Assembly: GCA_964514975.1 (NCBI GenBank)
Contig: CAZESS010000004.1
Location: 46,459-110,458 of the forward strand
DNA length: 64,000 bases
Direction: 5' to 3'
Origin: an uncultured Thermoplasmatales archaeon
Lineage (GTDB): Archaea > Thermoplasmatota > E2 > UBA202 > DSCA01
Under the pieces are notes generated by a model. That model saw only the letters and a program-made list of their open reading frames with translations, did no database searches and was not told the DNA's origin. Shown here piece by piece: positions 299 through 22,539 of this stretch (its first letter is position 1; each line of letters opens with the position of its first letter). The position numbers and the translations under genes are program-made.

Positions 299-529
299 GT
301 AAGCACGAGGCTGTTAAAGCATTTTCGCGGGCATGCCCCCTGTATATGGGAGTTCGATTGGCGGGTGGCAGCAAACAAACCGTCGTGCATGCTCGATGAT
401 TTGTAGCCGTATCGCCCGTTGTTCGAGCATAATAGCGAAACAGGGCGTGTGCAGGCATCGTGATGACGCCTTCGGCAGGGTTGGCCATAACATTAATATT
501 CACTGGCTCTATTACCGGCTTGGATAATC

Positions 530-1429: not shown

Positions 1430-1433
1430 TAAA

Positions 1434-3526: not shown

Positions 3527-3527
3527 G

Positions 3528-3572
3528 CCTTTCCCCATCCCTTTTTTCCTCTCCGTTTTTTTTTTATCTCCT
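3528..3572 (+). terminator. Oligo-T / pyrimidine-rich archaeal terminator
   Basis: ctttccccatcccttttttcctctccgttttttttttatctcc directly after the beta-subunit stop, between convergent genes. Confidence 0.6.
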
Positions 3573-3573
3573 G

Positions 3574-4417: not shown

Positions 4418-6454
4418 GTGGCAGAAGAACAGGAAGAACTGAAGGAGCAGCTTCCACCCATAGATACATGGATGCAGGAGCAGGACGTCGAAACGTCGGA
4501 TGACATCGAGATACCCGATACGTTGATGGAGCAGGTCATCGGACAGGATCATGCCGTCGAAGTCGTCCGGCAGGCCGCCCGGCAGAAGCGCCATATCATG
4601 CTCATCGGCGACCCGGGCACCGGCAAATCGATGATAGCCCGGGCGATGACCGAGTTCCTGCCGACCGAGGAGCTCGAGGACATCCTCACCTATCCAAACC
4701 AGGACGACCCCAACACGCCTCGGGTGCGCATCGTTCCCGCCGGCAAGGGCAAGGACATCGTCGACGCGATGAAGGCCGAGGCCCGAAAGCGCAAGCAGCA
4801 GCAGTCCCAGATGATGGCCACCATCCTCGCACTCATCGTCGGCGGTGCCATCATCGGCGCCATCGTCACCGGTGAGCTCACCATCGCCCTGTTCGGCATC
4901 ATCGCCGCGGCGATGATATATCTCATCGGGATGCGCGGCGGCATGATGCAGAATCAGGAGGAAAAGGACGTGCCCAAGCTCCTTGTGTCACATGAAGACG
5001 AGGACTCGCCGCCGTTTGTCGACGCGACGGCCGCACATTCGGGGGCGTTGCTCGGCGACGTTCGCCATGACCCGTTTCAGGCGGGCGGCCTTGAGACGCC
5101 GCCGCATCTGCGCGTTGAGGCAGGCGCCATCCACAAGTCACATCGCGGGGTCCTGTACATCGACGAGATCAACACGTTGAGCCTGCCGTCACAGCAGCAC
5201 CTTTTGACGGCGATCCAGGAAGAGGAATTCCAGATCACCGGGCAGTCGGAGCGGAGCAGCGGCGCCATGGTGAAGACAGAGTCGGTGCCCTGCGATTTCA
5301 TTCTGGTCTGTGCGGGCAACCTCGACGCCGTCGAGGGGATGCATCCCGCATTGCGGAGCCGCATCCGGGGCTACGGCTACGAGATATATATCAAGAGCGA
5401 CATGGAGGACAACGACGAAAACCGGACGAAGCTCATCCGATTCGTCGCGCAGGAGGTCGCCAAGGATGGCCAGATCCCGCATTTCGACCGGGCGGCCATC
5501 ACCGAGATCATCCGGGAGGCACAGCGCCGGGCCGGCCGGAAGGGAAAGCTGTCGCTTCGCCTGCGTGAGCTCGGCGGGCTCGTCCGGGCGTCGGGTGACC
5601 TCGCCATCAGGGAGGAGGCGGACATCGTGACCGCCGATCATGTCGTCAGGGCGAAAGAGCTTTCCTCGTCGCTTGAGCAGCAGGTGGCTGAGCGCTACCT
5701 GCAGAAAAAGAAGACCTATCAGTCGTTCAAGACCATGGGCGCCGAGATCGGCACGGTGAACGGCCTCGCCGTTATGTCCGCCGACCCGTCTATGAGCGAG
5801 TTCGCGGGCCTGATTTTGCCGATCGTCGCCGAGGTCACCCCTGCCGGCTCCAAGTCGGAGGGCAAGATCATCGCCACGGGGCGCCTGGGAGAAATTGCCA
5901 GTGAGGCGGTGCAGAACGTCTCCGCCATCCTCAAAAAATACATGGGAAAAGACATTTCGAAGCGCGATATCCACATCCAGTTCGTCGGCACCTATGAGGG
6001 TGTGGAGGGTGACTCCGCCTCGATTTCTGTTGCAACGGCGGTCATCTCGGCGATGGAAAACGTGCCACTGTCACAGGAGGTCGGCATGACCGGGTCATTG
6101 AGCGTCCACGGCGCCGTGCTGCCCGTCGGCGGCGTCACCGCGAAGATAGAGGCAGCGGCCAAGGTCGGCCTGAAAAAGGTGCTCATCCCGCGGGCGAACA
6201 TGCAGGACGTGCTCATCGAGGACAAGTACAAGGACCAGATAGAGATCGTGCCCGTTGAAACATTGAAGGACGTGCTGGACAACGTGCTGGTCGGCGGCAA
6301 AAAGGACGGGTTGATGCAGAAGCTCGAGAAGCTGCAGCCGTCGGTGGTCAGCAAGGTCGACCTGGAGTCGGAGCGGGCAACGAGCAAGGTACCCCGCACG
6401 GGAAAACAGCAGGGGCAGCCGCAGAGTGCCTCCAGCAATGATGGCGAGGGCTAG
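4418..6454 (+). CDS. lonB: Membrane-anchored archaeal Lon protease (LonB)
   Basis: Walker [11 protein letters not shown] hairpin inside the ATPase domain, LYIDEI Walker B, catalytic EGDSASIS and [12 protein letters not shown]. Confidence 0.95.
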
Positions 6455-7731
6455 CTCACCCAGCCGGGGCCGACCTGCGCCATAATATTTGTCCGTGTCG
6501 TCGTGAAATCGATGTCGTAGCTGTCATCGGCCGCGGGGCCATGCAGTGTGAGGGCGACCGCGCTGGATGTGTTGGTAAGGGTGTAGGACGATGCGCCAAG
6601 GTTTGCCCGGGTGAGCGTATTGTTCAGATAGCGATACCAGGCAGCGACATGCTTGGTGGCGATGGTAATGGTGATGTTGCTGGCGATGTATTCCTGTTCC
6701 TGCATGGAGGAATAGTTGGTTTTGATGGAATAGGTGCCGTAGCCGCTCACGCTGGTCTTACCCGCCAGGCCGGTGACGTCGACCATGCCGAGGCTGACCA
6801 TATGCGTTGGGTCGCCGCCCGTGGTATCGTTTTGTATCGAAAGCGCCGGCGCTGATATGACGGCCTGACCCTGGCTCTGGGTGAGGATGACGGCACCGCC
6901 CTCGTAGACATAGGTCTGGTCGACGAAGTAGGCGTTTTCGGAGCTGTATTCGATGGTGCCCATGCGGATGGTTCTGCCGATGGAGCCCCCGGGGTCGTAG
7001 CGGCTGCCGGTCATGACGAATGCGCCGCCGTTGGTGTTCGAGCTGTCGAACGACATGGTGAACGGTGTCGACAGGAAGGGCAGGATACGGGTGGAAAACC
7101 GGTATCCGTCGTCGAGCAGGTTTACAATGTAGCTCGCGTTTTTGGGAATCCATGCCACCGGCTGTTTGTAGACGGGGACCGCCGACAGGTTGGACACCCG
7201 GAGGTCGAGCTGCCAGAAGTCAGCAGAGAAGCTCGACACGGTCACGTTGACATATGCGGTGCCCGTCGACGCGTTGAAGTAGTCACCGCTGTAGAGATTG
7301 CTTCCATGGAGCTGGAGGTCGAAGGAGCTGAGGGAGCGAACGTTGGTCAGGTTGCCACCGGTTTTTTCGACGTTGGACATGCCCGTGGAGGAGAGCCCGT
7401 CCCCTGCTATGTCCACCTGGAAGCCGCTGTTCGCCGTTGAAAGGATGCTCAGGGACCCAAAGGCGCGGGCTGACACGAAAAACGGGAGCTCTTTGCTGCC
7501 GAGGGTGATGGAGTTGATGAGAGACATGTCCCGCTGCGCCATCGTCTCGATGTCTATCGAGGCTTTTATCTGGGAGAACTGGTTGGCAACGGTGTCCATG
7601 TGCTCTGCCTCCCGGTCCTTCATCCAGTTGGGGACATAGTATACCTGGACGAGGACGATGACCGCGACGAACAGGCTCACCATCAGGATAGCGACGACGA
7701 CGCCGACCTGTCCGCGCTCGTTTTTTTCCAT
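6451..7731 (-). CDS. Type IV pilin-like surface protein with class III signal peptide
   Basis: Start reassigned to 7731: MEKNERG|[27 protein letters not shown] (charged leader, G cleavage site, hydrophobic helix), then S/T/N-rich beta domains; TATA-like TTTAAA ~25 nt upstream. Confidence 0.72.
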
Positions 7732-7749
7732 CGGGGAAATAACCGCCCC

Positions 7750-7775
7750 TGGTTTAAATAAGTTTATGAAAAATT
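7750..7775 (-). promoter_or_regulatory. Putative TATA promoter for the 7731 gene
   Basis: Minus strand reads TTTTTCATAAACTTATTTAAACC, ending ~20 nt before ATG 7731, consistent with a short-leader archaeal transcript. Confidence 0.45.
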
Positions 7776-7811
7776 TGCTGTCTGCATCTGGCTCGCCGTG
7801 TTCCCGGTGTT

Positions 7812-10487
7812 TCATGACAGCATCCCCCGTCTGAACATGAGGTATATGGTCGCCCCAGCACCGATGATTGCGACGGCGGCGCCGATGATGAGCCAGGAGG
7901 GTCCACCGCTGTCGTCGTCTCCTCCGGGGACGGAAAACTGCATGGTTTGTTGGTTGTTGTCCTCGTTTTGCTCGTGGATGTCATCGTTCGGGTCGACATC
8001 CGCTTTGAGCGTGTGGGTTCCGGCGGTGACGTTGACGGCCTGCGTATGCTCTACCTGGCCGCCGGCTTCGATGGAGGGCAGCATGATGGAGGCTATCACT
8101 GTGTCGTCCATGATGATGTCCAGCGATGTCTGGTTTGCATTTCCGGTTCCGTTGTTGGCCACGGTGACGGTGACCTGAACCGTGTCACCGGCGTCCGGTG
8201 ATGCAGGGGTCATGGCCAGGCCGGCGAGTATGAGGTCGGGCTGCAATGGCTCCGGCGCTGCCACGGATATCTCCGTGCTTGTTTCGTCGGTCATGCCGTC
8301 GTTGTCCGTCACGGACAGCGTGACCGTGTAGGTGCCGTCTTCGCTGTAGCTATGCGACGGATTCTCCTGGATGGCAGTGGCGCCGTCTCCGTAGCTCCAC
8401 TGCCATGCGGTGATGCTGCCGTCGGGGTCGCTGCTCTGGTCGGTAAACGTCACGGTGCGGCCGTCCATGCTGTATGAGAAGGTAGCGGTGGGCGGCCTGG
8501 GCTCCGGAGGCGGAGGCGTGGGCTCCTGCCGGACCATGAAGCTCCATGTGTCCGATTGGGTGGCGGCGGCGCCGTCGTCGGCGACCGCATACCAGCGATA
8601 TGTGGCGGCGTAGCTCAGGCCGCTCCATGTCACGCTGGCCGTATCACCGCTGGCAACGGCGGCTACAGACTCTATTTCGCTGCCGACATCCGTGTAAAAC
8701 GTGACATCCATACTGTCTCCATCGGGGTCGAATACCGTGACCTGCAGGGTAACCGTCCGCGCCGTGCCGCTCGCCCCATCATTCGGCGAGGGATTGGACG
8801 GCTGCTCTGGCGGCTCGTTCACCGGCATGGTCTCGGTGGTAAACATCCATGCCTGGGAGGTAGTGGCGTTGCGGCCGTCGTCGGCGACCGCATACCAGCG
8901 ATATGTAGCGGCGTAGCTCAGGCCGCTCCATGTCACGCTGGCCATGGTGCCGCTGACCACGTCGGATATTGTATCGATGATGTCGTCGTTGCTGGCATCG
9001 TGAAAGGTGACATTCATCGAGTCGCCGTCCTGGTCCGCAACCGAAACCTGCAGTACAGCGTTCCGGGATACATTGTTCGCTCCATCATCCGGCGAGGGGT
9101 CGGATGGCTGCTCCGGCGGATTGTTGGCCGTTACCGTGACATCCCGCCGGGTTGTGTTAATCGCCCCGTCGTCATCGGTGACCGTCAGGGCGACCGTGTA
9201 GGTGTCGGCATGCTCATAGACATGCGTGGGGTGCTGCTCATGGGCGGTGGTACCGTCGCCGAAATCCCATGTCCAGTTGACGATGTCGCCGTCGTCGGTG
9301 CTCTCGTCGGTGAACGCAACCGGGTGTCCCGCACGGGGTTCCACCGGGGTATAGGAAAAATGTGCGGTGGGTGGCGGACTGGCAATTGTGAGCATCGCCG
9401 TGGTGGTGTTCGTCAGCCCGTCGTCGTCCGTCACGGACAGCGTCACCGTCTGGTTTCCCATTGCCTGATACCGATGGGTGACAACGGTGCCCGTATCGCC
9501 GGCGCCGTCTCCAAATGCCCAGGTGTAAGCGACGATGTCGCCGTCGGGGTCGCTGCTGTTCGCTGCGTCGAAGGTAACGGTCTCGTTTTTCACGGGCATC
9601 CGGGGATGCCATGCAAACGACGCCGTCGGCGCAACCGGCGAGGTAGACTCAAGGAGCACCTGTGCATTCCGGACATATACGGGTATCTCCTGTGCTGCCG
9701 TGTCGCTCAGGGTGACGTTCGAGATGTTGAGGTAACAGAGAGCGCCCTCGGTCCTGGGACTGAAGTGCAGCGTGGCGATATGGCCGCTCCCGGTTGTGTT
9801 TGTCCGGCCGACGAGGTGTACGATGCCGTCCTCCTGGCTCAGGGTGACGGATACCGGCGCGCCGTCGATTGAGCCATTGTCTGCCCCGGTGAACGACAGC
9901 AGGACGGGATCGTAGTGCAGGTCGAGGTTTACGCTGCTGAGGTTGGTGACGTTGGAAACATTGATGGATGCATCGAAGGCTCCCTGCACGGTCTCGGGTG
10001 CCTGTACCTCGAGCAGCGTGCCGGCAACGGTAACCCGATGGCCATGCCACGATGCCGGTATCTCCTGGCCGTCTCCATCGCTCAGGTTTCCCTCGATATC
10101 GAGGTCCGAATGGCCTGCTGCGGTGCAGGAAAACATTACCGTGGCGAGATAGCCGGAGCCGTTGACCGGCTGCAATCCCATGTCGTTGACGATGTGCAGC
10201 ACGCCGTCGTGCACGCTCGCGCTGGTCGGCACATCGGTGCCGTTGACGCTGCCGTTTTCGACCGATGCGACCGTGAGATATGAGGCGTTGTAGGAAACGG
10301 TAACGCTGGCCGCGTTGAATCCGGTCAGCTCTGACACTGATATCTGCACCGAGATGTTCTGGCCGAGCAGCGCCATGTCCGGTCCCGCCAGGGACACCGA
10401 TGGCTGCCCTTCGCCGGCGGCGGGCACGGCGGCGCCGATGGTCATGATGCAGCATGCACAGGCCAGCAGCGCAGCAACCTGTTTCAT
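7812..10487 (-). CDS. Membrane-anchored scaffoldin-like protein: 2x cohesin, 3x PKD, 2x Ig/Fn3-like repeats, CARDB, C-terminal TM anchor
   Basis: Signal peptide; two cohesin-like units (ISVQISVSELTGFNAASVTVSYNASYLTVASVENG; FDASINVSNVTNLSSVNLDLHYDPVLLSFTG...IATLHF); PKD WxFGDG...VTLxVTDDDG; CARDB PDL...VDPNDDIHEQNEDNN; TM helix followed by RR. Confidence 0.8.
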   Translation of the reverse strand: MKQVAALLACACCIMTIGAAVPAAGEGQPSVSLAGPDMALLGQNISVQISVSELTGFNAASVTVSYNASYLTVASVENGSVNGTDVPTSASVHDGVLHIVNDMGLQPVNGSGYLATVMFSCTAAGHSDLDIEGNLSDGDGQEIPASWHGHRVTVAGTLLEVQAPETVQGAFDASINVSNVTNLSSVNLDLHYDPVLLSFTGADNGSIDGAPVSVTLSQEDGIVHLVGRTNTTGSGHIATLHFSPRTEGALCYLNISNVTLSDTAAQEIPVYVRNAQVLLESTSPVAPTASFAWHPRMPVKNETVTFDAANSSDPDGDIVAYTWAFGDGAGDTGTVVTHRYQAMGNQTVTLSVTDDDGLTNTTTAMLTIASPPPTAHFSYTPVEPRAGHPVAFTDESTDDGDIVNWTWDFGDGTTAHEQHPTHVYEHADTYTVALTVTDDDGAINTTRRDVTVTANNPPEQPSDPSPDDGANNVSRNAVLQVSVADQDGDSMNVTFHDASNDDIIDTISDVVSGTMASVTWSGLSYAATYRWYAVADDGRNATTSQAWMFTTETMPVNEPPEQPSNPSPNDGASGTARTVTLQVTVFDPDGDSMDVTFYTDVGSEIESVAAVASGDTASVTWSGLSYAATYRWYAVADDGAAATQSDTWSFMVRQEPTPPPPEPRPPTATFSYSMDGRTVTFTDQSSDPDGSITAWQWSYGDGATAIQENPSHSYSEDGTYTVTLSVTDNDGMTDETSTEISVAAPEPLQPDLILAGLAMTPASPDAGDTVQVTVTVANNGTGNANQTSLDIIMDDTVIASIMLPSIEAGGQVEHTQAVNVTAGTHTLKADVDPNDDIHEQNEDNNQQTMQFSVPGGDDDSGGPSWLIIGAAVAIIGAGATIYLMFRRGMLS
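8571..8943. repeat. 70-bp near-identical intragenic direct repeat (8571-8640 / 8874-8943)
   Basis: Offset 303 bp, one mismatch seen; encodes ASVTWSGLSYAATYRWYAVADDG in both Ig-like repeats. Confidence 0.85.
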
Positions 10488-12985
10488 GCCAATCCCAGGA
10501 TCATCTGGATAACGAGGGTCACGTCGGCGGTGGTCACCGTGCCGTCAGCGTTGGCGTCAGCCGGCGGCGGATACTCCGCGCCGGGATGAGCGGCAAGGTG
10601 CTGTACGACCAGGTCTGTCTTCGTGATGTCGAGCGCGTTGATGCGGCCGTCCATGGTGGCGTCGCCGCGTCGCCAGACCGATATCTCCCGCGATGTCACC
10701 TGACTGTTTCCGTAGCTGTCGGTCGTGCTCAGCGTCACGGTGTAGGAGCCAGGCTGGCTGTAGGTATGGGATACGTTCGGACCCGTTGCGCTTCCGCCGT
10801 CGCCAAACGTCCATGTCCATGTGGCTATGCTGCCGTCGGCGGTACCGTTGAACGACACGGTTTCGTTGACGAACGGGAATGAATGAGTGTAGTTCACCGC
10901 TGTACGCTCCACCGTCGTGAACAAACGGGTCGGGGATGTCGTGGTGGCCATGCCGTCCGATGCCGTCACATGCCAGGTATAGGTTTGCCCGTGCTCGAGG
11001 GTGCAGGCGACGCTCATGGTGCCGTTGCCGGTCTCCGTGGTGTGCACTGCCGTTCCGTTGAGATAAAACACGGCGTCCATGGTGTCGCTGTCGGGATCGG
11101 TGACCGTGGCTCTGAGGGAAAGGTTTGCATTGGTGGTGCTTCCGTTGCCGGGGGATTCCAGCGCGATGGATGGCGGATGGTTGTCGCCGGCGGGAACCGT
11201 GACGTTGCGCTTTTCGCCATATGCGATCCGCCCGGTGTCGCCCACGGCGATTGCCCGGTAGTAATAGGTCTTGCCTGCTGCAACGCCGGGTATGCTCGCA
11301 TTGAAACCGCCCGTCCGGTTGGTGGCCACAACGTTGGTGGAGGATTTTTTGCCGTTCCAGTATTCGAACCAGAGGTAGCATGATGTGCTGTCGCCGAGCG
11401 CTGTTAGGTTGCCGTGCAGCGTGGCGTTTTCTCCGGTGATGGTGGCCTGTCCCGTGGTGACCGTTGGGGCTGCGGGCACGGATGTCATCCGGAATGACAG
11501 CATGGTGCCGTTGTATCTGCCCTGGCTGTTGTTGACGACGGCCCGGTAATGGTAGGTGGTGTTCCCGGCGAGTCCTGTTACCACCGTGCTGACCGGGCCC
11601 TCGCCGGTGATTGTCTGCACGGGCGTGGTCATCGTGAGATTATCGTTTTGGCCGTATTCGAACCAGACCTCGCATGTCTGGTCGCCGCCCATGTCGGTGA
11701 CGTTTGCCTGCAGCACGACCGCGTGCTCCACCGAGCCGGTGTCCACCTGCGCCTTGACCGCCGTGGTGGTAAACGTGCCGTCCTGCCCGTAGGTGGCGCC
11801 CGCGCTGTTTTCGGCTACCGCCCGATAATGATAGGTCGTGCCCGGCTGGAGTCCGGTCAGCGTGCCGGTGAAGGAGCCGTCGTCAAGGGACATTGCCTGG
11901 GTGGCCGAGCCGTAGGCCGTCGTTGGCCCGTATTCGAACCATACAGTGCATTGTTCGCCGCCCCAGTCGTCAAGGGTGCCCCTGAGCGTGGCGGTGCTGC
12001 TGGTGACATTGTCGGCGCTCCCGGTTGTCACGGCGGGCCGGACGACATGGGTGGTAAACGTTTTGGTGGAGCCATCTGTCTCCCCGGCGGTGTTGCTGGC
12101 ATACGCCCGGTATTGATAGGTGGTGTCGAGCGACAGGTCGGTGAGCGTGTGGGAAAAGCTCCCGGAAGAATGCATCGTGGTATTCCCGACGGCGACATGG
12201 CTGCCGTCCGTCCAGTATTCGAACCATACGGTGCAGTTGTTCGCGCCCGGGCTGCTCAGGTAGCCGTTCAGCCTGGCGCTGTCGTAGTCGACCGAGCTCG
12301 CCGCGTTGGTTGACACCGAGGGCTTCGCCGCCGATGTGTGAAACGTTTTGTCGTCTCCGTAGCTCTTTTTTTGGCTGTTCTCGGCGACGGCCCTGTAATG
12401 ATAGGTGGTGTCGGGGTCGAGGCCTGACACCGAGATGGAAAACGAGCCGGTGCCCGTTTTTTCAACCTTGTCGTCGGTCGATTGGCCATAGGACTGGCTC
12501 GTGCCATACTGGAACCATACCTGACAGGTGCCCGTATCCGGGTCGTTCAGGTCGTTGAGCGTTCCATGCAGCGTTGCGCCGCCGCTGCCTACATCGCTCT
12601 CGTCGTTTGTAACAACAGCCGGGAAGCCGACGAGGGAAAAACTGATGTTCCGGGATGGCTCGCTGACGTCGAGCACGAAGCTTTTGCGGTTTTCCTGCTG
12701 GTCATGAACGCAGGACACCTGGATGGTGTCCCCGTTTTCGCAGTTTTCCAGCGCCGACAGATCCGCCTGGTAGTATCCATCGCTGTTCGTGGTGACAGTC
12801 ATAAGCGTTGACTTGGACACATCTTTCACCGTCACGGTCACGCCGGACGGCAGCGTATCCCCGTCAGCGTTTTTGATGACACCGTAGACGGGAAACGACT
12901 GGTCGAGCGCGTCGCTCGAAAGCAGCATCGGTATCAGGCTGGTCAACAGCAGGATGGCTATCATGACACTTTGTATTTTTTTCAT
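10484..12985 (-). CDS. Secreted Fn3-like repeat protein with PKD and C-terminal dockerin
   Basis: Signal peptide; ~5 repeats with VWFEYG...TTYHYRAVA; PKD; C-terminal GDATMDGRINALD...ADANADGTVTTADVTLVIQMILG (duplicated Ca-binding loop-helix typical of dockerins); no TM anchor. Confidence 0.82.
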   Translation of the reverse strand: MKKIQSVMIAILLLTSLIPMLLSSDALDQSFPVYGVIKNADGDTLPSGVTVTVKDVSKSTLMTVTTNSDGYYQADLSALENCENGDTIQVSCVHDQQENRKSFVLDVSEPSRNISFSLVGFPAVVTNDESDVGSGGATLHGTLNDLNDPDTGTCQVWFQYGTSQSYGQSTDDKVEKTGTGSFSISVSGLDPDTTYHYRAVAENSQKKSYGDDKTFHTSAAKPSVSTNAASSVDYDSARLNGYLSSPGANNCTVWFEYWTDGSHVAVGNTTMHSSGSFSHTLTDLSLDTTYQYRAYASNTAGETDGSTKTFTTHVVRPAVTTGSADNVTSSTATLRGTLDDWGGEQCTVWFEYGPTTAYGSATQAMSLDDGSFTGTLTGLQPGTTYHYRAVAENSAGATYGQDGTFTTTAVKAQVDTGSVEHAVVLQANVTDMGGDQTCEVWFEYGQNDNLTMTTPVQTITGEGPVSTVVTGLAGNTTYHYRAVVNNSQGRYNGTMLSFRMTSVPAAPTVTTGQATITGENATLHGNLTALGDSTSCYLWFEYWNGKKSSTNVVATNRTGGFNASIPGVAAGKTYYYRAIAVGDTGRIAYGEKRNVTVPAGDNHPPSIALESPGNGSTTNANLSLRATVTDPDSDTMDAVFYLNGTAVHTTETGNGTMSVACTLEHGQTYTWHVTASDGMATTTSPTRLFTTVERTAVNYTHSFPFVNETVSFNGTADGSIATWTWTFGDGGSATGPNVSHTYSQPGSYTVTLSTTDSYGNSQVTSREISVWRRGDATMDGRINALDITKTDLVVQHLAAHPGAEYPPPADANADGTVTTADVTLVIQMILGLA

Positions 12986-15900: not shown

Positions 15901-16944
15901 TGGTGTGTATGTGAAGCTGGCCGTCGGCTTGTTGGCTATAACAAATTTTTTTTCGGCGGACCGGACCGTGTTGTTGTTGGTGTCGTTGGCCCACACGGTA
16001 TAGCGGTAGGTGCCCTTGGCAGTGTAATTTCGGGTATAATGGTAGTTGGTGGTGTTGCCCGTCCGATTCATGCTGGTGTTGTGGCATGTGCCGTTTGGAA
16101 GCGTGATGTTGATGTAGTTCATGCTCACGTTGGCGGAGCTGGTTATCCGGCATGAGATGTTGACCTGTCCACCGGGCGACTGTATCTGGGGGGTTGCCTG
16201 CAGATGGAAAATGTTTATCCCGGCGTACGGCCGCATCAGGGGATAGCGATCGAAAGTTGAACCTGTGGCTGGCTGGATGGGATACGGGGTGTCACCGATG
16301 CCGTCGTTGTTGGTGTCGTTTCCGTCATAGCTATCCCAGTAGTTGCCCTCTTCGAGCGTGGCATTGTACCAGAAGTTGTCATGTCCGGCATCGTAGGCGC
16401 TGTTGTTGAGAAATGAGTTGTGAAACATGGTGTTGCCTGTGCAAAATTTCTCGACATACAGCCCGTGGTTGGCGGAATTTTCTATCCGGTTTTCCTGTAC
16501 CACATTGTTGTCGGCAAGCCGGAGCCGTATCCCGTCATAGTTGTCGGTGACGGTACACTGTGAAATCGTTACACGCTCTGTGCCGTCGAGGAGCATGCCG
16601 CCTTTTCCGGAGCCGCCGTTCCTGATGGTGCAGCCCGTTATGGATGCCCCGCTGGCCTTCACGGTCACCACGTATCCCTGTCCCTCCCCGTCGATGATAA
16701 CGGCATCCCGACCGGAGCCCACCAGGCTGACCTGTTTGCTGATGGATACGCGTTCATTGTATGTCCCCGCGTATACGAAAACGGTGTCTCCAGAGCCGGC
16801 GTCGTTGATCGCCTGCTGGATTGAGGTGTAATCCTCGCCCCCGTTGACATCCACCGTGATTGTCTCCCCCTCCGTAACATATCCCCTGAAGGAAAAGAGC
16901 AGGAGGCAGACAGCTAGGAGAGCGAGCGGGAAGCTTTTTTTCAT
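12982..16944 (-). CDS. Secreted NosD/pectin-lyase-like beta-helix protein with multiple PKD/Ig domains and duplicated C-terminal module
   Basis: DYTSIQQAIN...GDTVFVYAGTYNE beta-helix cap, GNYWDSY...D..GIGDTPY beta-helix end, ~6 PKD domains, two ~95-aa C-terminal repeats. Confidence 0.82.
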   Translation of the reverse strand: MKKSFPLALLAVCLLLFSFRGYVTEGETITVDVNGGEDYTSIQQAINDAGSGDTVFVYAGTYNERVSISKQVSLVGSGRDAVIIDGEGQGYVVTVKASGASITGCTIRNGGSGKGGMLLDGTERVTISQCTVTDNYDGIRLRLADNNVVQENRIENSANHGLYVEKFCTGNTMFHNSFLNNSAYDAGHDNFWYNATLEEGNYWDSYDGNDTNNDGIGDTPYPIQPATGSTFDRYPLMRPYAGINIFHLQATPQIQSPGGQVNISCRITSSANVSMNYINITLPNGTCHNTSMNRTGNTTNYHYTRNYTAKGTYRYTVWANDTNNNTVRSAEKKFVIANKPTASFTYTPASPTRLDTVTFNATSSSDPDGSIINYTWNLGDGTTMTGETVGYQYSKNRTYTVTLTVTDNHGAWDTAQQEVTIRNILPVADFSFTPDNATVGEPVSFTDLSYDPDGDVYEHEWSFGDGATSNNDNPTHAYASNGNFTVTLTVTDGDDGNDTMTGEITVRDVEPPRIENVSAYPNPQEIKGRVNVTCRVTDDVAVDQVWINITGPTSDNMSMHSNDGTTWWHEAPYNTAGNYSVKIWADDPSGNSNTSNPYTFQIFHPAMPPEIHDVQDVPQEKQYGYPVNISCNASDNVALSSVTINVTFPDGSSINTSMDPAGIDDDCNGIYFHNQTYPSLGNYSYRIWATDVNDYVSNSSIHQFTIVDTMPPHMTNLSISPGIQEPNETVNVSCTVADNLAMQNVSITITHAGDTMAHKTMNTSSLYFLTQSYSQQGRYNVTIHANDTLGNLASFSGQFSITIFPTANFTFSPASPVSRENITFTDHSNDPDGSITAWHWTFGDGNTSTAQHPTHSYSEDATYTVTLTVTDNDSATATLSRQITVENVPPTATLTYTPGQPTDLDTITFNASGSTDPDGNITGYNWSFGDGTTTTGAIATHSYQDDGTYMVTLTVTDDDGASSQVQQNVTVDNVPPAADFGYAQSGMQIGVSPNASDPDGTIVNWTWNFGDGTIKYENTSTDVTHRYSQDGGYTVTLTVTDDDNATASTSAHISVGTYLAADFTYGADPATGSPVAFHDNSSYAATWQWTFGDGKTSNQTNPSHTYHIGNYYNVTLTITNGSANATMSKTVPVDTTIHIVKNANNVVNYIPWLGDNITASALASQIGGAIMPPGSVVSRWNTSTGSFDSYVVGVSPPEYDFVIHPYDAVVLRVAAAGNFTEQAYRLADRIVQLHKNSDNVANHVVWSSVTAVQASALASQIGGAIMPPGSVVSRWNTSTGSFDSYVVGVSPPEYDFVIHPGDCAVLRIAQSGQYHIEVKT
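13045..13471. repeat. 142-bp perfect intragenic direct repeat (13045-13186 / 13330-13471)
   Basis: Base-by-base comparison shows identity over 142 bp at offset 285; encodes ASALASQIGGAIMPPGSVVSRWNTSTGSFDSYVVGVSPPEYDFVIHP. Confidence 0.93.
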
Positions 16945-16953
16945 CGTGACCTC

Positions 16954-19900
16954 TTATTCGACACGGCTGATGAGCGGACGGATGTCCTCTTCGCTGCTGG
17001 GGCCAGCAATGTCGTAATAAACGCTCCAGTACCAGGCGGTGCCGCTCTCGGGCTGCTGCGTTGCATTGGGATACCGCTGCTCGTAGTTCTTCCAGTAGTT
17101 GCCCTCTTTTTCCTCGGAGTCCGGATTGTACCAGCTGTTGCCGCCGCCTTCGTCGTAGCACAGGCTGGAACTCCTGAAGCTGGTGTTTTCGAAGTTGTTC
17201 GAGTATATCTTGTTGTTTTTGGAATTGTTTCCAAGGATGTAGACGCCGTAGCTGGCGGACAGGTCGATGGTGAACGTGTTTTCTTTGAGGACATTGTTAC
17301 TCGTGGAAGAGGTCAGGTAGATTCCTCTACCATTGTATTCAAGTATGTTATCCTGGATTGTGCCATCCGTGGCGGCTTCCATATATATGCCTTGCGTGCT
17401 GCCCGAGATGGTGTTGCCGGTGATGGTACAGTAGGTGGAGGATTGCACGTAGATGCTCTCGTTTGTGTTCGATGACATGGTGTTGCCGCTGATGGTGCAG
17501 GACCCCGAGTTCACGATGTATATTCCCCGTTCATTGTAGGATATGGTGTTTCCGTTTTCGACATGGGTGCCGTTGGAGCTCCTGATCTCTATGCCGATGC
17601 TGTTGTTGCAGATAGTGTTGCTCTGTATGGGGCGCGACGAACCAAGCGTCGATGAAAGCACTTTAACGGCGGCCGAGGTGTTATGCCAGTACAGGTGGTT
17701 GTTTTTAACGTCGGCGGTGTCGGAGTTGTTGATGACGATGCCCGGCGCGTTCTGCCACAGCGTGTTGTTGTTGACGACGTTGTTATCGGAGGAGGAGGCA
17801 AGGTAGATACCCGAGCCAGCGTGGCCATAGACCCGGTTTCCTCCCTCCGCGTTGTTGCCGACGCTGTTGCTGTTTGAAGCGGAGAGATAGATGCCGTCCG
17901 TGTTGCCATACACGGTGTTGTCAAAGATGCTGTTGCCGTTCGAGGACGACAGATAGACGCCCCGCTGGTTGCCATACACCGTGTTATCCTCGATGGAGTT
18001 GCCCTTCGAGGTGGCCAGGATGATGCCATTGCCGCCATTGTCATGCACCGTGTTGTTACGTATTTCGTTGTTGCCCGCGGTCGCCGGCTTGGAGTTCTCC
18101 AGGTAGATGCCGTGGGACGTGCTCGAATGGACGACGTTGTCCACGATGATGTTTCCGTTTCCTCCAGACGAGGAGAGATGAATACCGATGTCGTTGTGCT
18201 CGACGGTGTTGGACAGCACGTCGTTGTTGTTCCCCGAGGTGAGCAGCAGGCCCGTCTGCGTGTTGTTGTGGAGATAGTTGCCGGCTATCCGGTTGTTGGA
18301 GGAACTCGTTGACAGGATGCCGAAGCCCTGGTTCCATCGGATGACGTTGCCGGTGATGTTGTTCGTGGACGAGGACTGCACCTTCATGCCGTTGCCAGTG
18401 TACTCGACGAGGTTGTCAACAATGGTGTTTTCCTGAGCGTAGTTGTTGAGATAGATGCCGCTGATGCTGCTGTTGTTGATGGCGTTGCCGGTCACGTTGT
18501 TGTAGCTGCTCCCCTCGACATAGATACCATAAACGTTCTCCCAGAGCGTGTTGTTGTAGATGGCGTTGGTGTTCGAAAACGAGTACAGACGGATGCCGCT
18601 TTGCCCGTTGCCATATATATCGTTCTGTGTTATCTCGTTTTCATTTGACGACTGCATGTAGATACCATGTCTGCCGTTTCCAGTGATAACGTTGTAGATA
18701 ACGACGTTTCCGCCGGGGAGATTGTAGAGAGCCCGGTTGAAATGTATGCCGTCGCCGGTGCTGTTGGAAATTGTGCAATGCTCAATGGTGTTGTTCTTTG
18801 AATCATAGATGTATATGCCCCGCGAGTTGTTGTGAACCGTGTTGTTGTAGATGGTGTTGAAGTTGGAGGAGGAAGACAGAGATATCCCGGTTTCCGTGTG
18901 ATTCATAATCTGGTTTGCCTGTATCACGTTGTTGCTCGAGCTGCTCCCCAGGATACCGTACTGGTTGCTTTCTATCTGGTTGTGCACGATGTCGTTGTTG
19001 CTTGAATCCTGTAGCTCCAAACCGTTCAGATTTGACTGCAGGGTGTTATCTTCGATGGTGTTTGAATGGGAATAGTCGCTTATCAGGAAAGCGCTCCCGG
19101 AGTGGTCGGTTATCACGTTGTCGGTAACGATGTTGCTGTTCGATATGTTGAGATAGATGCCTCGCGTGTTGTTTTGTATCGTGTTGTATCTGAGGGTGTT
19201 CAGGTCGGTGGCGGACACGAGTTCTATTGCGGTGCCGGTGTTGTCTTTGATGGTGTTGTATGAGACGGTGCATGACTCGAGGTTTTCCAGGTAGACAGCA
19301 TTGTCCGTAAGGCGAATTGTGTTGTTGGTGATGGATGCAAGGCTGGAGCGGTACAAAGAGATACCCATCTGGCCTGTTGACTGGATGCTGTTCTCCCTGA
19401 TTTTGGTGCCCAGGCTGTATCTGCCATGGATGCCATAGCTGGCGTTTTTGAGCGTGCATCCGCGGATGGTATTGTTGTGGGCGTTGTCGAGCGATATGCA
19501 TTTGTCGGCTATGTTGGTAGCCAGGGTACAGTTAATGATGGAGCAGCGGGCAGCCCCATCGAGTAAAATACCATTTTGAGCTGAATTGCCCTTGATAATG
19601 ACGTCTTTCACGGTCGTCCAGTCTGCCCGAAGGGTGAGAATGTTGCCACCGCTGGCCCGTATCGTGGGCGTGTCGATACCGATGATGTTTACCGATTTAT
19701 CGACGGAAAGCTGTTCATCGTATATCTGTCCGCTTGACCCTATAACGTTGACGGTGCCTCCGGGCGGAACGGCAGCGATGCCGGCCTGTATGGTTTCCAG
19801 ATGGGTTTCGTCGTCGAGCCATCCTGCCGGCGGGTCGTTGTTCACCCAGACCTCGGTGTTGTAGCCGGCTCCTTCGGCCATCCATGCCAGTACATTGCGA

Positions 19901-22539
19901 AGATAGTTCGTTCGGCTTTCCTCTGTTATCTCGTCCGCGTTGAGGTCGAAGCCCAGGATGATGCTCCGGTTTTGGTCACGGGTTGCATCGATGGCGAAGT
20001 TGCCGGTGATGCTGCTGGCGGTGGTGCCGACGACCTCTATATCGTCAATATAGTACCCGTAGTCACGGCCTGAACTGCTTGTGTCGAGCGTCCAACGTAA
20101 CTGTATGTTTCCTCCCGTATAGCTTGAGAGATCATATGTCTGGGTGGTCCATGTACCGGGTTCGTTTGCCCGATCGAATGTATCGAGTTCATGCCAGCTT
20201 CCATCATATACCTCTAACGTGACTTGGTCATATGAGTCAGCAAATCTGTACCGGTGCTTGAATTCGAGTGTTGCACCATAATATGTGGAGAGGTCTATTC
20301 CGGGGGATTTCAGCCAGCAGTCTGCATCATTGTTATAATAATGCGAATAACCTGACACGTCAGTTCCGTACACATAGCTACTCCTGTACGGGAAATAAGG
20401 CGACCCATACCCTTGTCCCCCCCAACCGCTCTCCCATTCATCCTCATCCCCTCCATGGTCCCATCCGTTGAGGTTATCACAATCATAATATTCAATACGG
20501 CTTTCTTCACTGGGGCCATAGAGGCTGTTCGCTTGTATAGAATAGTTGAACAGCGGGTCTGACTGCTTGTTGAGGCCGTAGAGCTCGATGGGGGAAGAGA
20601 AGTTGAGGTAGGCTCCATTGGATGACGTTCCGGGCATGCCGACCAGCGAGCCGGATGCAGTGTAGGGCTTTCCCCGGAAATAGTCATCCGATATACGGTC
20701 GGAATAGGATACCCAGTCTGAATCATATACGATGCCGCCCTGGTCATTACCGTCGTAGTACAGGCCGAGCGTGGTGCCCAGGTCCACCTCGCTCTGGGTG
20801 ACACCGTTGCCGGGATAGTTGACGAGGTCGCGGACCGCGTAGCTCCCGGACATCATGAACACGCCGGCTGTATGGTTGCCCTCCATGTGCTGCTCTATTT
20901 CACGCATGTGGTCGGAGACGTCGTCGCCGCCCTCCGTCATGGGGGTGCTCCAGTAATTTGGGTAGGTGGTATAGGGATAGTTGTTGGCTCCGCCGCCGTC
21001 GCCGGGGAAGTTGCCGGTGCTCCAGATGACGATGTCGAACTGGTTGAGCACCGTCCCTGAAATATTTGCCCCGCGGAGGTCCGGAGAGGTATCCGCATCG
21101 TCGGTAAACACCCACTGGTCGAGCGCCTTTCCGTATGAGTAGTCGGAGTCGGGCATGATGTTCTGGCAGGCGGCCTTGAGATTGTCAATGCCGCTCTCCC
21201 ATCCCGTGGGGGTGTTATCAACGAACAGGAACCGGGGTGAGGATGCGGTCGCTGGCGAGCTCACCGTGATGTTTTTCTGTTCGACGGCCCAGCCCCCACT
21301 GTCGTCCGTGACGTTGAGCGTCACCGTGTAGTTGCCCGGCGTGTTATACTGGTGGCTGACGGTCGAGCCGTAGGCAGTGTCGCCGTCACCGAAATCCCAT
21401 GACCAGTTGACGATGTTGCCGTCCTTGTCGTAGCTATACGGGGAGCCGCCGTCGAAGGTCACGCTTGAAGCGGTGGTGATGTTCGCCGAGCTCGTCGAAA
21501 ACCCTGCCTGGGGACTGATGTTCGGCACGTCCACGTTTATCTCCTTGGTGCTGGTATCGCCGTTGTCATCGGTGACAATCAGTGTCACCGTATAGGTGCC
21601 GCTCTGGTCATAGGTATGGCTGGGGTTTTGGCTGGTCGAGCTGGTGCCGTCGCCGAAGTTCCATTCATATGAAACGATTTCGCCGTCGGGATCGCTCACG
21701 TTTGAGGTGAAATCGATGGTGCCGTTGACATTCGGGTTGACGCTCCAGGAGAAATTGCTGTCTGGCGGTACGTTGCCGGACACCGGTATCGGCGGTGGCA
21801 CGTGGACGCCGTGGGAATGAGCGGTGCTCGTCGTGTTTGTCTCACCTTCGTCGTCGACGACAGTCAGCGTGACATTATAGGTGCCTTCGGATGCATAGGT
21901 GTGCACGGGTGTCGGCCCGTAGGCATCTATGACCCCATCGCTCGTCCAGTCCCATCGGTATTCCTGGATGCTGCCGCCGTCGGGGTCATAGCTCTCCGTT
22001 GCATTGAAATATAGCGTTTCCTCTGTCTTTGGGTCATATGGGGTGTAGGTGAACTGGGCGACCGGCGGCATGGTGTGCAGGATGCCCTGCTGAAGGACGC
22101 CGCTCATGATGATGGAGTTGCTCGGTTTGTCGATGATGGCGACCGATATCTGCCAGCGGGCGACCTCGCCGAACATGCTCGTGCAGTCAAGCTCGATGTA
22201 ATCGCCGACGTCCCAGCGGCCATTGTCATTTGAGTCATGAAAGACGGCTGAGAGAGCGCTCCCTTCCAGCGTGTGTGACTGGTTGTCTCCTTTTTTGATC
22301 ACGACCCTGAGTTCCTCTAGTGGTATGGAGTCTCCTCCACGGTTTTCGACGGTGGCCATCGTGTTATCGTCCATCGATCCGACCATGTGGACGCTCGGTG
22401 CGGACGGCGAGCTGTCCATTGAGAGCACGTAGACGATCAGCGATGAAAATATGATGACGGCGATGGCGAGCAGGAGCACAGTGCCGATGATTTCTGAGAC
22501 ACCTTCTCTTCCTTTTATTCTTCCAATTTTTTCCATCAT
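16954..22539 (-). CDS. Giant type IV pilin-like adhesin: pilin N-terminus, 3x PKD, jelly-roll-like insert, long right-handed beta-helix
   Basis: KGREG|VSEIIGTVLLLAIAVIIFSSLIVYV class III signal; NRGGDSI...WDVGD pilin-associated domain; PKD motifs; WLKSPGIDLS...GYYIDDIEV jelly roll; dozens of NNxIxxNxIxxNxxGIYL coils; GNYW terminus. Confidence 0.85.
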   Translation of the reverse strand: MMEKIGRIKGREGVSEIIGTVLLLAIAVIIFSSLIVYVLSMDSSPSAPSVHMVGSMDDNTMATVENRGGDSIPLEELRVVIKKGDNQSHTLEGSALSAVFHDSNDNGRWDVGDYIELDCTSMFGEVARWQISVAIIDKPSNSIIMSGVLQQGILHTMPPVAQFTYTPYDPKTEETLYFNATESYDPDGGSIQEYRWDWTSDGVIDAYGPTPVHTYASEGTYNVTLTVVDDEGETNTTSTAHSHGVHVPPPIPVSGNVPPDSNFSWSVNPNVNGTIDFTSNVSDPDGEIVSYEWNFGDGTSSTSQNPSHTYDQSGTYTVTLIVTDDNGDTSTKEINVDVPNISPQAGFSTSSANITTASSVTFDGGSPYSYDKDGNIVNWSWDFGDGDTAYGSTVSHQYNTPGNYTVTLNVTDDSGGWAVEQKNITVSSPATASSPRFLFVDNTPTGWESGIDNLKAACQNIMPDSDYSYGKALDQWVFTDDADTSPDLRGANISGTVLNQFDIVIWSTGNFPGDGGGANNYPYTTYPNYWSTPMTEGGDDVSDHMREIEQHMEGNHTAGVFMMSGSYAVRDLVNYPGNGVTQSEVDLGTTLGLYYDGNDQGGIVYDSDWVSYSDRISDDYFRGKPYTASGSLVGMPGTSSNGAYLNFSSPIELYGLNKQSDPLFNYSIQANSLYGPSEESRIEYYDCDNLNGWDHGGDEDEWESGWGGQGYGSPYFPYRSSYVYGTDVSGYSHYYNNDADCWLKSPGIDLSTYYGATLEFKHRYRFADSYDQVTLEVYDGSWHELDTFDRANEPGTWTTQTYDLSSYTGGNIQLRWTLDTSSSGRDYGYYIDDIEVVGTTASSITGNFAIDATRDQNRSIILGFDLNADEITEESRTNYLRNVLAWMAEGAGYNTEVWVNNDPPAGWLDDETHLETIQAGIAAVPPGGTVNVIGSSGQIYDEQLSVDKSVNIIGIDTPTIRASGGNILTLRADWTTVKDVIIKGNSAQNGILLDGAARCSIINCTLATNIADKCISLDNAHNNTIRGCTLKNASYGIHGRYSLGTKIRENSIQSTGQMGISLYRSSLASITNNTIRLTDNAVYLENLESCTVSYNTIKDNTGTAIELVSATDLNTLRYNTIQNNTRGIYLNISNSNIVTDNVITDHSGSAFLISDYSHSNTIEDNTLQSNLNGLELQDSSNNDIVHNQIESNQYGILGSSSSNNVIQANQIMNHTETGISLSSSSNFNTIYNNTVHNNSRGIYIYDSKNNTIEHCTISNSTGDGIHFNRALYNLPGGNVVIYNVITGNGRHGIYMQSSNENEITQNDIYGNGQSGIRLYSFSNTNAIYNNTLWENVYGIYVEGSSYNNVTGNAINNSSISGIYLNNYAQENTIVDNLVEYTGNGMKVQSSSTNNITGNVIRWNQGFGILSTSSSNNRIAGNYLHNNTQTGLLLTSGNNNDVLSNTVEHNDIGIHLSSSGGNGNIIVDNVVHSSTSHGIYLENSKPATAGNNEIRNNTVHDNGGNGIILATSKGNSIEDNTVYGNQRGVYLSSSNGNSIFDNTVYGNTDGIYLSASNSNSVGNNAEGGNRVYGHAGSGIYLASSSDNNVVNNNTLWQNAPGIVINNSDTADVKNNHLYWHNTSAAVKVLSSTLGSSRPIQSNTICNNSIGIEIRSSNGTHVENGNTISYNERGIYIVNSGSCTISGNTMSSNTNESIYVQSSTYCTITGNTISGSTQGIYMEAATDGTIQDNILEYNGRGIYLTSSTSNNVLKENTFTIDLSASYGVYILGNNSKNNKIYSNNFENTSFRSSSLCYDEGGGNSWYNPDSEEKEGNYWKNYEQRYPNATQQPESGTAWYWSVYYDIAGPSSEEDIRPLISRVE

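What the first reader, a model, noticed from the sequence alone, without database searches (positions are those of the whole stretch)
6451..22539. Archaeal cohesin-dockerin surface assembly in one cluster with type IV pilin-like adhesins
Seen: four large co-oriented genes abut or overlap (22539-16954, 9-bp gap, 16944-12982, 12985-10484, 10487-7812), followed by a second pilin-like gene. The third ends in a dockerin and has no membrane anchor; the fourth starts with two cohesin-like domains and ends in a TM anchor. Known: cohesin-dockerin pairs assemble bacterial cellulosomes, and archaeal examples (Archaeoglobus fulgidus) have no established function. Inference: this is a non-cellulolytic scaffold in which a membrane-tethered two-cohesin protein displays dockerin-tagged partners, co-expressed with pilus-associated adhesins. 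No glycoside hydrolase is recognisable here, so the cargo may be adhesins or dockerin-tagged enzymes such as peptidases encoded elsewhere.
Basis: partly seen in the sequence, partly recalled or inferred. Interest (0 to 1): 0.85.

Follow-up and report, generated by a model that had tools for sequence, protein, structure and literature searches.

The report
Archaeal cohesin-dockerin surface protein operon
An uncultured wall-less archaeon carries a conserved five-gene operon for giant surface proteins in which a secreted protein ending in a dockerin "plug" sits next to a membrane-anchored protein starting with two cohesin "sockets", a known kind of snap-together system in an undescribed, lineage-wide arrangement.

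Summary
The five co-oriented genes lie at the stated coordinates and carry the stated domains:
- a 1861-aa pilin-signal, PKD and beta-helix protein;
- a 1320-aa NosD-like and PKD protein;
- an 833-aa FN3-like protein that ends in a Dockerin_1 domain;
- an 891-aa protein with a signal peptide, two cohesins and a C-terminal TM anchor;
- a 454-aa DUF7289 protein with a pilin-type signal.

The cohesin pair models at pLDDT 94. Its 41 best structural matches are all cohesins, and the best is the Archaeoglobus fulgidus cohesin at Z 17.9.

The cohesin pair was found strongly in 31 of 39 genomes of the order and in 0 of 138 other genomes sampled from the phylum. A dockerin lies just upstream in 28 of 28 testable loci.

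The genome holds four further dockerin-gene then cohesin-gene junctions. Binding itself is inferred, because the complex predictor was unavailable.

The guess of dockerin-tagged peptidases is not supported. None of the 7 dockerin proteins has an enzyme domain. The peptidases instead carry an unnamed tandem C-terminal domain, which the second gene of the operon also has.

Verdict: a non-cellulosomal archaeal cohesin-dockerin system, and a new variant of a known kind. The scan had already noted the same operon on other DNA (e1-4722211).

The parts
16954..22539 (-). P1, 1861 aa: class III (pilin-type) signal and hydrophobic helix, 3 PKD domains, weak MAM-like region, about 900-aa parallel beta-helix
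   Evidence: Pilin_N 53.2 bits; Beta_helix 412 bits; 17 PbH1 repeats; single TM-like segment aa 21-39; motif conserved in orthologues
12982..16944 (-). P2, 1320 aa: Sec-type signal, NosD-like beta-helix, Ig-like and 6-7 PKD domains, tandem C-terminal domain
   Evidence: (NosD TIGR04247 119 bits, below the cut-off of 300)
12994..13524 (-). Unnamed tandem C-terminal domain of P2 (aa about 1141-1317, two copies of about 85 aa)
   Evidence: 22 proteins of the genome end in this pair; no Pfam family above cut-off; 4541 representatives; 134 of the 150 best end within 3 aa of the C-terminus; 142-nt perfect repeat between the two copies
10484..12985 (-). P3, 833 aa: Sec-type signal, CarboxypepD_reg-like tip domain, five to six FN3-like repeats, PKD, C-terminal dockerin; no anchor
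   Evidence: orthologues 43-58% identical
10496..10666 (-). Type I dockerin of P3 (aa 774-830), two Ca-loop segments DATMDGRINALD and DANADGTVTTAD
   Evidence: 28.8 bits against 22.9; best solved relative 4fl4_A, E 2.9e-5; loop residues D775 D779 G780 N783 D786 D810 D821 invariant in 12 sequences
7812..10487 (-). P4, 891 aa: Sec-type signal, cohesin pair, 3 PKD, two FN3-like modules, CARDB, C-terminal TM anchor with basic tail
10023..10406 (-). Cohesin 1 of P4 (aa 28-155)
   Evidence: 43.7 bits; pLDDT 94; Z 17.9 to 2xdh, rmsd 2.6, 131 aligned
9633..10022 (-). Cohesin 2 of P4 (aa 156-285)
   Evidence: 36.7 bits; pair matches cohesin dyad 3l8q, E 2e-17
7836..7892 (-). C-terminal transmembrane anchor of P4 (aa 866-884), followed by FRRGMLS
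   Evidence: conserved in orthologues
6451..7815 (-). P5, DUF7289 protein with class III signal ([12 protein letters not shown]); probable true start Met29 at about 7731
   Evidence: 426-aa cluster mate; single copy in the genome
22540..22679 (-). A+T-rich intergenic region upstream of P1 with TATA-like runs and a GGGGAGG motif before the ATG; probable promoter of the operon (inferred)
   Evidence: Read directly; no archaeal promoter tool was available

Best explanation
This is a five-gene surface-protein operon of an uncultured, non-methanogenic Thermoplasmatota archaeon.

P4 is a type I membrane protein. Its C-terminal helix sits in the membrane, and about 570 residues of PKD, FN3-like and CARDB spacer hold two N-terminal cohesins away from the cell.

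P3 is secreted without an anchor. Its C-terminal calcium-binding dockerin plugs into a P4 cohesin, so up to two P3 could bind one P4. The complex would be a two-piece stalk. Its outer end would be the FN3-like array and the well conserved N-terminal CarboxypepD_reg-like domain of P3.

P1 and P5 are held by pilin-type N-terminal helices after processing by one of the two prepilin peptidases encoded elsewhere. P2 is retained through its tandem C-terminal domain.

The assembly is an adhesive or coat structure, not a polysaccharide-degrading machine.

Shown: domain identities, folds, topology, operon structure, conservation and distribution. Inferred: the P3-P4 binding, its stoichiometry, the retention roles and the adhesive function.
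For: - Domains pass the curated cut-offs.
- The cohesin pair models at pLDDT 94.3. The 41 best VIA rows are all cohesin entries (Z 13.3-17.9). The first non-cohesin entry has Z 12.4 at rmsd 13.5.
- The dockerin aligns to clostridial type I dockerins. Its two Ca loops are invariant in 12 orthologues.
- Topology follows from the hydropathy scan.
- The 4-nt overlaps at the P2/P3 and P3/P4 junctions recur in the 6 orthologous loci mapped.
- The cohesin pair is strong in 31 of 39 genomes of the order. A dockerin lies directly upstream in 28 of 30 loci, and the 2 misses are at contig ends.
- Four further junctions in the same genome place a dockerin-ending gene directly before a cohesin-starting gene.
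- In one paralogue group the dockerins (65-71% identical) and their neighbouring cohesins (76%) stay alike. Other pairs are 23-41% identical over alignments of 40 residues or more.
- Archaeal cohesin-dockerin pairs are reported to bind (PMC9012536, section 32, passages read; PMC12484212, passages read).
Against: - No binding test of any kind was possible, because the complex predictor was unavailable.
- The dockerin score is modest (28.8 bits).
- Only two sequence groups are clear: the operon's own pair, and the tight group on contigs C5 and C14. The remaining dockerins and cohesins are heterogeneous, so the argument from co-segregation rests on one group.
- Two cohesins face one dockerin gene, so one cohesin may have another partner.
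- No RNA data were found, so co-transcription is inferred from spacing only.
- Nothing shows what the assembly adheres to.
Confidence: 0.62

Rival explanations
1. The neighbouring cohesin and dockerin do not bind each other. Each binds a partner encoded elsewhere, and the adjacency only reflects shared regulation of surface proteins.
For: The genome has an orphan dockerin protein (contig C7) and an orphan cohesin protein (contig C26), so pairing in trans must exist. P4 has two cohesins for one adjacent dockerin.
Against: The P3 dockerin is at most 36% identical to the other six dockerins over alignments of 49 residues or more, so no other like dockerin is on offer. Adjacency with a 4-nt overlap holds in 28 of 28 testable loci across the order. 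The same gene order recurs at four other junctions.
Confidence: 0.15
2. The operon encodes accessory subunits of a type IV pilus-like filament. P1 and P5 are minor or tip pilins assembled by machinery elsewhere, and the P3-P4 pair is mounted on or beside that filament.
For: P1 gives the best Pilin_N match of the genome. P5 has a canonical class III signal. Three T2SSE ATPases and two A24 prepilin peptidases are encoded elsewhere. Earlier scan notes describe pilin-cohesin fusions in DPANN archaea (unchecked).
Against: No ATPase, platform protein or small major pilin lies in the window. P4 has its own TM anchor and no pilin signal. Recalled, not tested here: archaea also use class III signals on large non-pilus surface proteins.
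Confidence: 0.15
3. It is an enzymatic, cellulosome-like complex. The beta-helix proteins P1 and P2 would be polysaccharide lyases or hydrolases organised by the cohesin scaffold.
For: Right-handed beta-helix and NosD-like repeats occur in carbohydrate-active enzymes. Another beta-helix protein of the genome gives a weak pectate-lyase-like hit (protein 20: 27 bits, with no stretch passing on its own).
Against: Neither P1 nor P2 carries a dockerin. No GH, PL or CBM family was hit in the five proteins, nor in any of the 7 dockerin proteins. The only dockerin cargo here, P3, consists of FN3-like and PKD modules.
Confidence: 0.05

Closest known systems
Non-cellulosomal cohesin-dockerin modules of Archaeoglobus fulgidus (cohesin structure 2xdh)
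   Same: Archaeal, not linked to glycoside hydrolases. It is the best structural match of cohesin 1 (Z 17.9, rmsd 2.6, 131 residues). The pair is reported to bind and is used as a display tool (PMC12484212 and PMC9012536, passages read).
   Different: Here the cohesins form a pair at the N-terminus of a TM-anchored protein. The dockerin protein is a separate, conserved FN3-like stalk. Both lie in a five-gene operon with two pilin-signal proteins that is conserved across an order. The gene arrangement in A. fulgidus is recalled only and was not checked here.
Dockerin/cohesin proteins of ANME archaea (Chadwick et al. 2022, PMC9012536, section 32 read)
   Same: Many archaeal surface proteins with dockerins or cohesins and no cellulolytic role. 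The nearest cohesin relative outside the lineage is a Methanosarcinales protein with an N-terminal dockerin and four cohesins (35% identity).
   Different: The paper describes the ANME proteins as variable between genomes, with dockerins on substrate-binding and S-layer proteins and with scaffoldin-like proteins of up to five cohesins. Here one fixed syntenic pair is conserved across an order.
Bacterial anchoring scaffoldins (cohesin plus cell-surface anchor, such as SLH-bearing SdbA or OlpB and sortase-anchored ScaE; recalled)
   Same: The same logic: a surface-anchored cohesin receives a dockerin-bearing partner. Solved type I and type II cohesins align at Z 13-17.
   Different: The anchor is a single C-terminal TM helix in a wall-less archaeon. 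The partner is not an enzyme-loaded scaffoldin. No CBM or GH modules are present.
Pilin-linked cohesin-dockerin clusters noted earlier in this scan in DPANN archaea (e1-1247005, e1-1451598, e1-4969480)
   Same: A dockerin gene next to a cohesin gene among pilin-signal genes in archaea (summaries only).
   Different: In those notes the cohesin is fused to a pilin. Here it is on a Sec-signal, TM-anchored protein. Those notes were not checked here.

Membership tests
Cohesin (PF00963) | Profile match above the curated cut-off | tested here: met
   76.5 bits against 24.1 in two stretches; 43.7 and 36.7 bits singly
Cohesin (PF00963) | Cohesin-type beta-sandwich fold rather than a generic Ig fold | tested here: met
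   pLDDT 94.3. The 41 best VIA rows are all cohesin entries, Z 13.3-17.9. The pair matches cohesin dyad 3l8q at E 2e-17. Cohesin 2 was not searched alone.
Cohesin (PF00963) | Binds a dockerin | not testable with these tools
   The complex predictor was unavailable
Dockerin type I (PF00404) | Profile match above the curated cut-off | tested here: met
   28.8 bits against 22.9; 33.4 bits in the genome scan
Dockerin type I (PF00404) | Two duplicated segments, each a 12-residue Ca-binding loop followed by a helix | tested here: met
   DATMDGRINALD and DANADGTVTTAD were read. The segments align over both loops to 4fl4_A. The loop Asp, Asn and Gly residues are invariant in 12 orthologues.
Dockerin type I (PF00404) | Calcium-dependent binding to a cohesin | not testable with these tools
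   No experiment was possible and one search was unavailable
Cellulosome | Dockerin-bearing glycoside hydrolases and a CBM-bearing scaffoldin | tested here: not met
   No GH, PL or CBM family was hit in the five operon proteins or in the other six dockerin proteins
Archaeal type IV pilin (Pilin_N, class III signal) | Class III signal peptide with a hydrophobic N-terminal helix | tested here: met
   P1: Pilin_N 53.2 bits against 25.2. P5: the motif K/R-G-Q followed by VGVVVAIL is conserved in 7 orthologues, but there is no Pilin_N hit. Each has a single strong hydrophobic segment.
Type IV pilus locus | Assembly ATPase and platform protein encoded with the pilins | tested here: not met
   The three T2SSE matches lie on contigs C1, C12 and C13, none in the window's contig. 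No such family was found among the window ORFs scanned.
NosD (N2O reductase maturation) | Equivalog-level match | tested here: not met
   TIGR04247 gives 216 and 119 bits against a cut-off of 300. The matches reflect generic parallel beta-helix repeats.

The most novel reading that the evidence does not exclude
This lineage may display its whole exoproteome on a wall-less cell through two modular systems. The first is cognate cohesin-dockerin pairs encoded as neighbouring genes, with the order-wide P3-P4 stalk as the fixed core. The second is an undescribed tandem C-terminal domain that acts as a surface-retention or sorting tag. That tag is carried by P2, by one cohesin protein, and by gingipain-, clostripain-, legumain-, subtilisin- and M28-type peptidases. 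In function it would resemble bacterial SLH repeats or the C-terminal domain of type IX secretion cargo (analogy recalled).
Probability: 0.3. Interest if true: 0.7.

Novelty: new variant of a known kind. Interest (0 to 1): 0.5.

Why it matters
Archaeal cohesin-dockerin modules have been known since 1999, but their role is still open (PMC9012536, section 32).

Here the pair sits in a fixed, translationally coupled operon. That operon is near-universal in one order of Thermoplasmatota and was not found in 138 other genomes sampled from the phylum. This names one defined cohesin partner and one defined dockerin partner, so binding can be tested directly. It also gives a lineage marker for a surface structure.

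The side finding may matter more for ecology. It is a widespread, unnamed C-terminal tandem domain on extracellular peptidases, and it bears on how sediment and mat archaea keep protein-degrading enzymes at the cell surface.

Tried and rejected
- Word-based homologue search with the cohesin pair: only 3 proteins, including the query itself. This was too few for a deep alignment, so orthologues from related genomes were used instead.
- AF2 of the tandem C-terminal domain: pLDDT 63. Foldseek against the PDB gave no match at E <= 0.001, so the fold is undetermined.
- Lenient Pfam scan of that domain: only P11_C at 18.8 bits, below its cut-off of 27.
- The sigma-70 promoter and intrinsic terminator scan gave counts at the shuffle expectation and does not apply to archaea.
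- Peer et al. 2009 (PMC3035643) is not held, so its survey of archaeal modules was not read.
- Literature searches for cohesin and dockerin with Thermoplasmata, Thermoplasmatota, or Thermoprofundales/MBG-D gave no paper whose title or abstract concerns such a system in this phylum (listings only). A search for 'DUF7289' found no paper.
- I first read genome G004 as lacking P3. tblastn shows P3 intact there. My ORF picker had hidden it.
- A methanogen identity was rejected because no McrA was found in a genome that is 98.9% complete.
- A covariation test between dockerin and cohesin across the 28 pairs was considered and not run. There are too few independent lineages for it to be meaningful.

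Full report
OBSERVATION

There is a 9-nt gap between the first two and 4-nt overlaps at the next three junctions. Their translations are open and of the stated lengths.

Pfam gives the following:
- P1 (1861 aa): Pilin_N 53.2 bits, three PKD domains and a very long Beta_helix/NosD region. NCBIfam counts 17 parallel-beta-helix repeats.
- P2 (1320 aa): a NosD-like beta-helix and six to seven PKD domains.
- P3 (833 aa): a CarboxypepD_reg-like start, FN3-like repeats, one PKD and Dockerin_1 at aa 774-830 (28.8 bits, cut-off 22.9).
- P4 (891 aa): two Cohesin stretches (76.5 bits), three PKD domains and CARDB.
- P5 (454 aa): DUF7289.

A hydropathy scan shows the following:
- P3 has only an N-terminal signal-like segment.
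- P4 has a signal-like segment and a C-terminal TM segment (aa 866-884) followed by a basic tail.
- P1 and P5 each have one strongly hydrophobic N-terminal helix behind a pilin-type cleavage motif.

No glycoside hydrolase, lyase or CBM family was hit. The one correction is that P5 probably starts at Met29.

CONTEXT AND ORGANISM

Upstream on the same strand lie smc, scpA and scpB. Downstream, lonB converges on P5. Further on are rpoH, an unsplit rpoB and rpoA'.

The genome is 1.96 Mb in 66 contigs and 98.9% complete. It has no McrA. Proteins in the same 90% cluster as its RpoB are named 'Thermoplasmatota archaeon'. The best named relative of P3 is a MAG labelled 'uncultured Thermoplasmatales archaeon' (48% identity). 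So this is an uncultured, non-methanogenic Thermoplasmatota archaeon.

ARE THE DOMAINS REAL?

The P4 cohesin pair (aa 28-290) was modelled with ten orthologues and gave mean pLDDT 94.3.
- Foldseek ranks the type II cohesin dyad 3l8q first (E 2e-17).
- In the VIA re-alignment the 41 best rows are all cohesin entries (Z 13.3-17.9). They are led by the A. fulgidus non-cellulosomal cohesin 2xdh (Z 17.9, rmsd 2.6, 131 residues). The first other fold follows at Z 12.4, at an rmsd above 13.
Cohesin 2 rests on its own Pfam score (36.7 bits) and on the dyad match.

The dockerin aligns over both calcium loops with clostridial type I dockerins (4fl4_A, E 2.9e-5). The loop residues are invariant in 12 orthologues.

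CONSERVATION

Mapping of the window proteins onto loci of relatives shows the order P1-P2-P3-P4-P5, followed by a convergent lonB, in six genomes:
- G003, of the same genus;
- G012 and G010, of another genus in the same family;
- G019, G013 and G024, of another family.

The contigs of G012 and G010 start within or before P2. The locus taken from G024 cuts P1 at its edge.

The junctions behave as follows:
- The 4-nt overlaps at the P2/P3 and P3/P4 junctions recur in all six.
- The smc-scp neighbourhood is shared only within the genus.
- P3-P4-P5 adjacency is also seen in G002, G006, G017 and G027, and in the named MAG.
- G004 has an intact P3 as well.

A profile of the cohesin pair finds a match at E <= 1e-10 in 34 of 39 genomes of the order. 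It finds a strong match (E <= 1e-42) in 31 of them, which covers the whole profile in all but two. A dockerin profile built from the P3 orthologues hits directly upstream in 28 of the 30 loci returned. The two misses have 0 and 4 nt of upstream sequence.

In an even sample of the phylum the pair occurs in 11 of 12 genomes of the order and in 0 of 138 others. The absence holds for those genomes searched, not for the phylum as a whole. The system therefore looks like a trait of this order.

P3 is better conserved than P4. Mean pairwise identity is 55-63% across P3 regions, highest in the N-terminal domain, against 37-41% for the P4 cohesins and spacer.

THE SAME LOGIC ELSEWHERE IN THE GENOME

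The genome has 7 Dockerin_1 and 8 Cohesin matches, one of the cohesin matches below the cut-off. Besides the window, a gene ending in a dockerin directly precedes a gene starting with a cohesin at four junctions:
- on contig C5 (311 aa, then 655 aa);
- at the start of C5;
- at the end of C14, where the genes are cut by the contig ends;
- on C16, where two dockerin genes are followed by a weak-cohesin gene and a cohesin gene.

One dockerin protein (C7) and one cohesin protein (C26) are orphans.

The three dockerins of the C5/C14 group are 65-71% identical, and the two of their neighbouring cohesins that could be compared are 76% identical. All other comparisons over alignments of 40 residues or more are 23-41%. 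The P3 dockerin is at most 36% identical to any other over 49 residues or more, apart from a 60% match over only 20 residues.

This supports neighbour-equals-partner. It is clear only for that one group and for the uniqueness of the window pair. The remaining modules are heterogeneous.

CARGO

None of the seven dockerin proteins has a recognisable enzyme domain. A C25 peptidase gene lies next to the C7 dockerin gene but has no dockerin itself.

A SECOND TAG

The last 180 residues of P2 are two copies of an unnamed domain of about 85 aa.
- An iterated search in the genome's own ORFs finds the pair at the extreme C-terminus of 22 proteins and single or cut copies in 3 more.
- No Pfam family reaches its cut-off. 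Atlas neighbours are unnamed Thermoplasmatota clusters.
- The AF2 model is poor (pLDDT 63) and has no PDB match.
- A profile finds 4541 cluster representatives at E <= 0.001 among 1.84 billion proteins. In 134 of the 150 best the match ends within 3 residues of the C-terminus.
- The domain is found in 12 of 12 sampled genomes of the order and in 25 of 151 of the phylum sample, G000 included.
- Of 20 carriers scanned in this genome, 7 have peptidase catalytic domains (C11, C13, M14, S8 twice, M28, C25) and one has a C25 propeptide only.
- I scanned 56 of the 100 best representatives, namely those of 450-1500 aa taken in rank order up to the size limit of the call. Of these, 9 are peptidases, 2 are Porphyromonas-type arginine deiminases, 1 has a cohesin and 12 have beta-helix regions.
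- The large cohesin protein on C14 also ends in this pair. There the tag takes the place that the TM anchor has in P4.

I read it as a surface-retention or sorting tag. This is an inference from position and cargo only.

MECHANISM

Shown: domains, folds, topology, gene order and distribution.

Inferred:
- P4 is anchored by its C-terminal helix and presents two cohesins at its far end.
- Secreted P3 docks by its dockerin and extends the stalk.
- P1 and P5 are tethered by pilin-type helices after cleavage by one of two A24 peptidases encoded elsewhere.
- P2 is held by the tandem tag.
- The pilus reading is weaker, because the three T2SSE genes lie on other contigs.

COMPARISON AND NOVELTY

Archaeal cohesin-dockerin modules are known from A. 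fulgidus and from ANME archaea, and are reported to bind (PMC9012536, section 32, passages read; PMC12484212, passages read). The closest outside relative of the P4 cohesins is a Methanosarcinales protein with one dockerin and four cohesins.

Three features are new:
- the fixed five-gene arrangement with a TM-anchored cohesin pair;
- a conserved enzyme-free dockerin stalk;
- restriction to one order.

My literature searches listed no paper on such a system in this phylum (listings only). Peer et al. 2009 could not be read.

The scan itself had already noted the orthologous operon in another genome (e1-4722211). My counts agree with that note's 'about 30 related species', but this is not independent evidence.

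VERDICT

Observation confirmed. Interpretation partly supported. This is a new variant of a known kind, with moderate interest. The tandem C-terminal tag on peptidases is the more novel lead.

Noticed in passing
window 12994-13524 (-); also G000 contigs C1, C3, C5, C7, C9, C11, C13, C14, C15, C19, C23, C39: An unnamed tandem C-terminal domain (consensus GWNLxTVP...IVAYWNAS.G.F.SYVVG...GYFVYV) ends 22 proteins of this genome, 7 of 20 scanned being peptidases. There are 4541 representatives in public data, and the domain is nearly always at the extreme C-terminus.
   Followed up: partly
window 13045-13186 and 13330-13471: A 142-nt perfect direct repeat between the two copies of the tandem domain inside P2. 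It suggests recent gene conversion or duplication.
   Followed up: no
window 7731-7815: The annotated-length start of P5 (7815) adds 28 residues that are absent from orthologues and from a 426-aa cluster mate. The real start is probably Met29.
   Followed up: partly
L038:2824-6699 (genome G024): The P4 and P5 orthologues read as one 1291-aa ORF with no stop between the P4 TM anchor and the P5 pilin signal. This could be a real fusion or a sequencing error.
   Followed up: no
G000 C5:1-1743 and C14:53641-59758: Two near-identical dockerin-gene then cohesin-gene modules are cut by contig ends, so such paralogues seem to break the assembly. The C14 cohesin protein is 1861 aa long and ends in the tandem tag.
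   Followed up: partly
G000 C7:44289-53870 (L019): A C25 (gingipain-like) peptidase gene sits directly upstream of a 2381-aa dockerin protein with DUF11, beta-propeller and CARDB modules. The peptidase itself has no dockerin.
   Followed up: no
window 512-3673 (-): Three ORFs (319, 294 and 423 aa) have no Pfam family. Two of them are conserved at 72-77% identity beyond lonB in genome G003.
   Followed up: no
P0007 (public Methanosarcinales MAG protein, 624 aa): A scaffoldin-like archaeal protein with an N-terminal dockerin and four cohesins. It is the nearest outside relative of the P4 cohesins (35% identity).
   Followed up: partly
window 10484-12985 versus 7812-10487: The dockerin protein P3 is much better conserved across the order (55-63% pairwise) than its presumed anchor P4 (37-41%). 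The N-terminal CarboxypepD_reg-like domain of P3 is the best conserved part.
   Followed up: no
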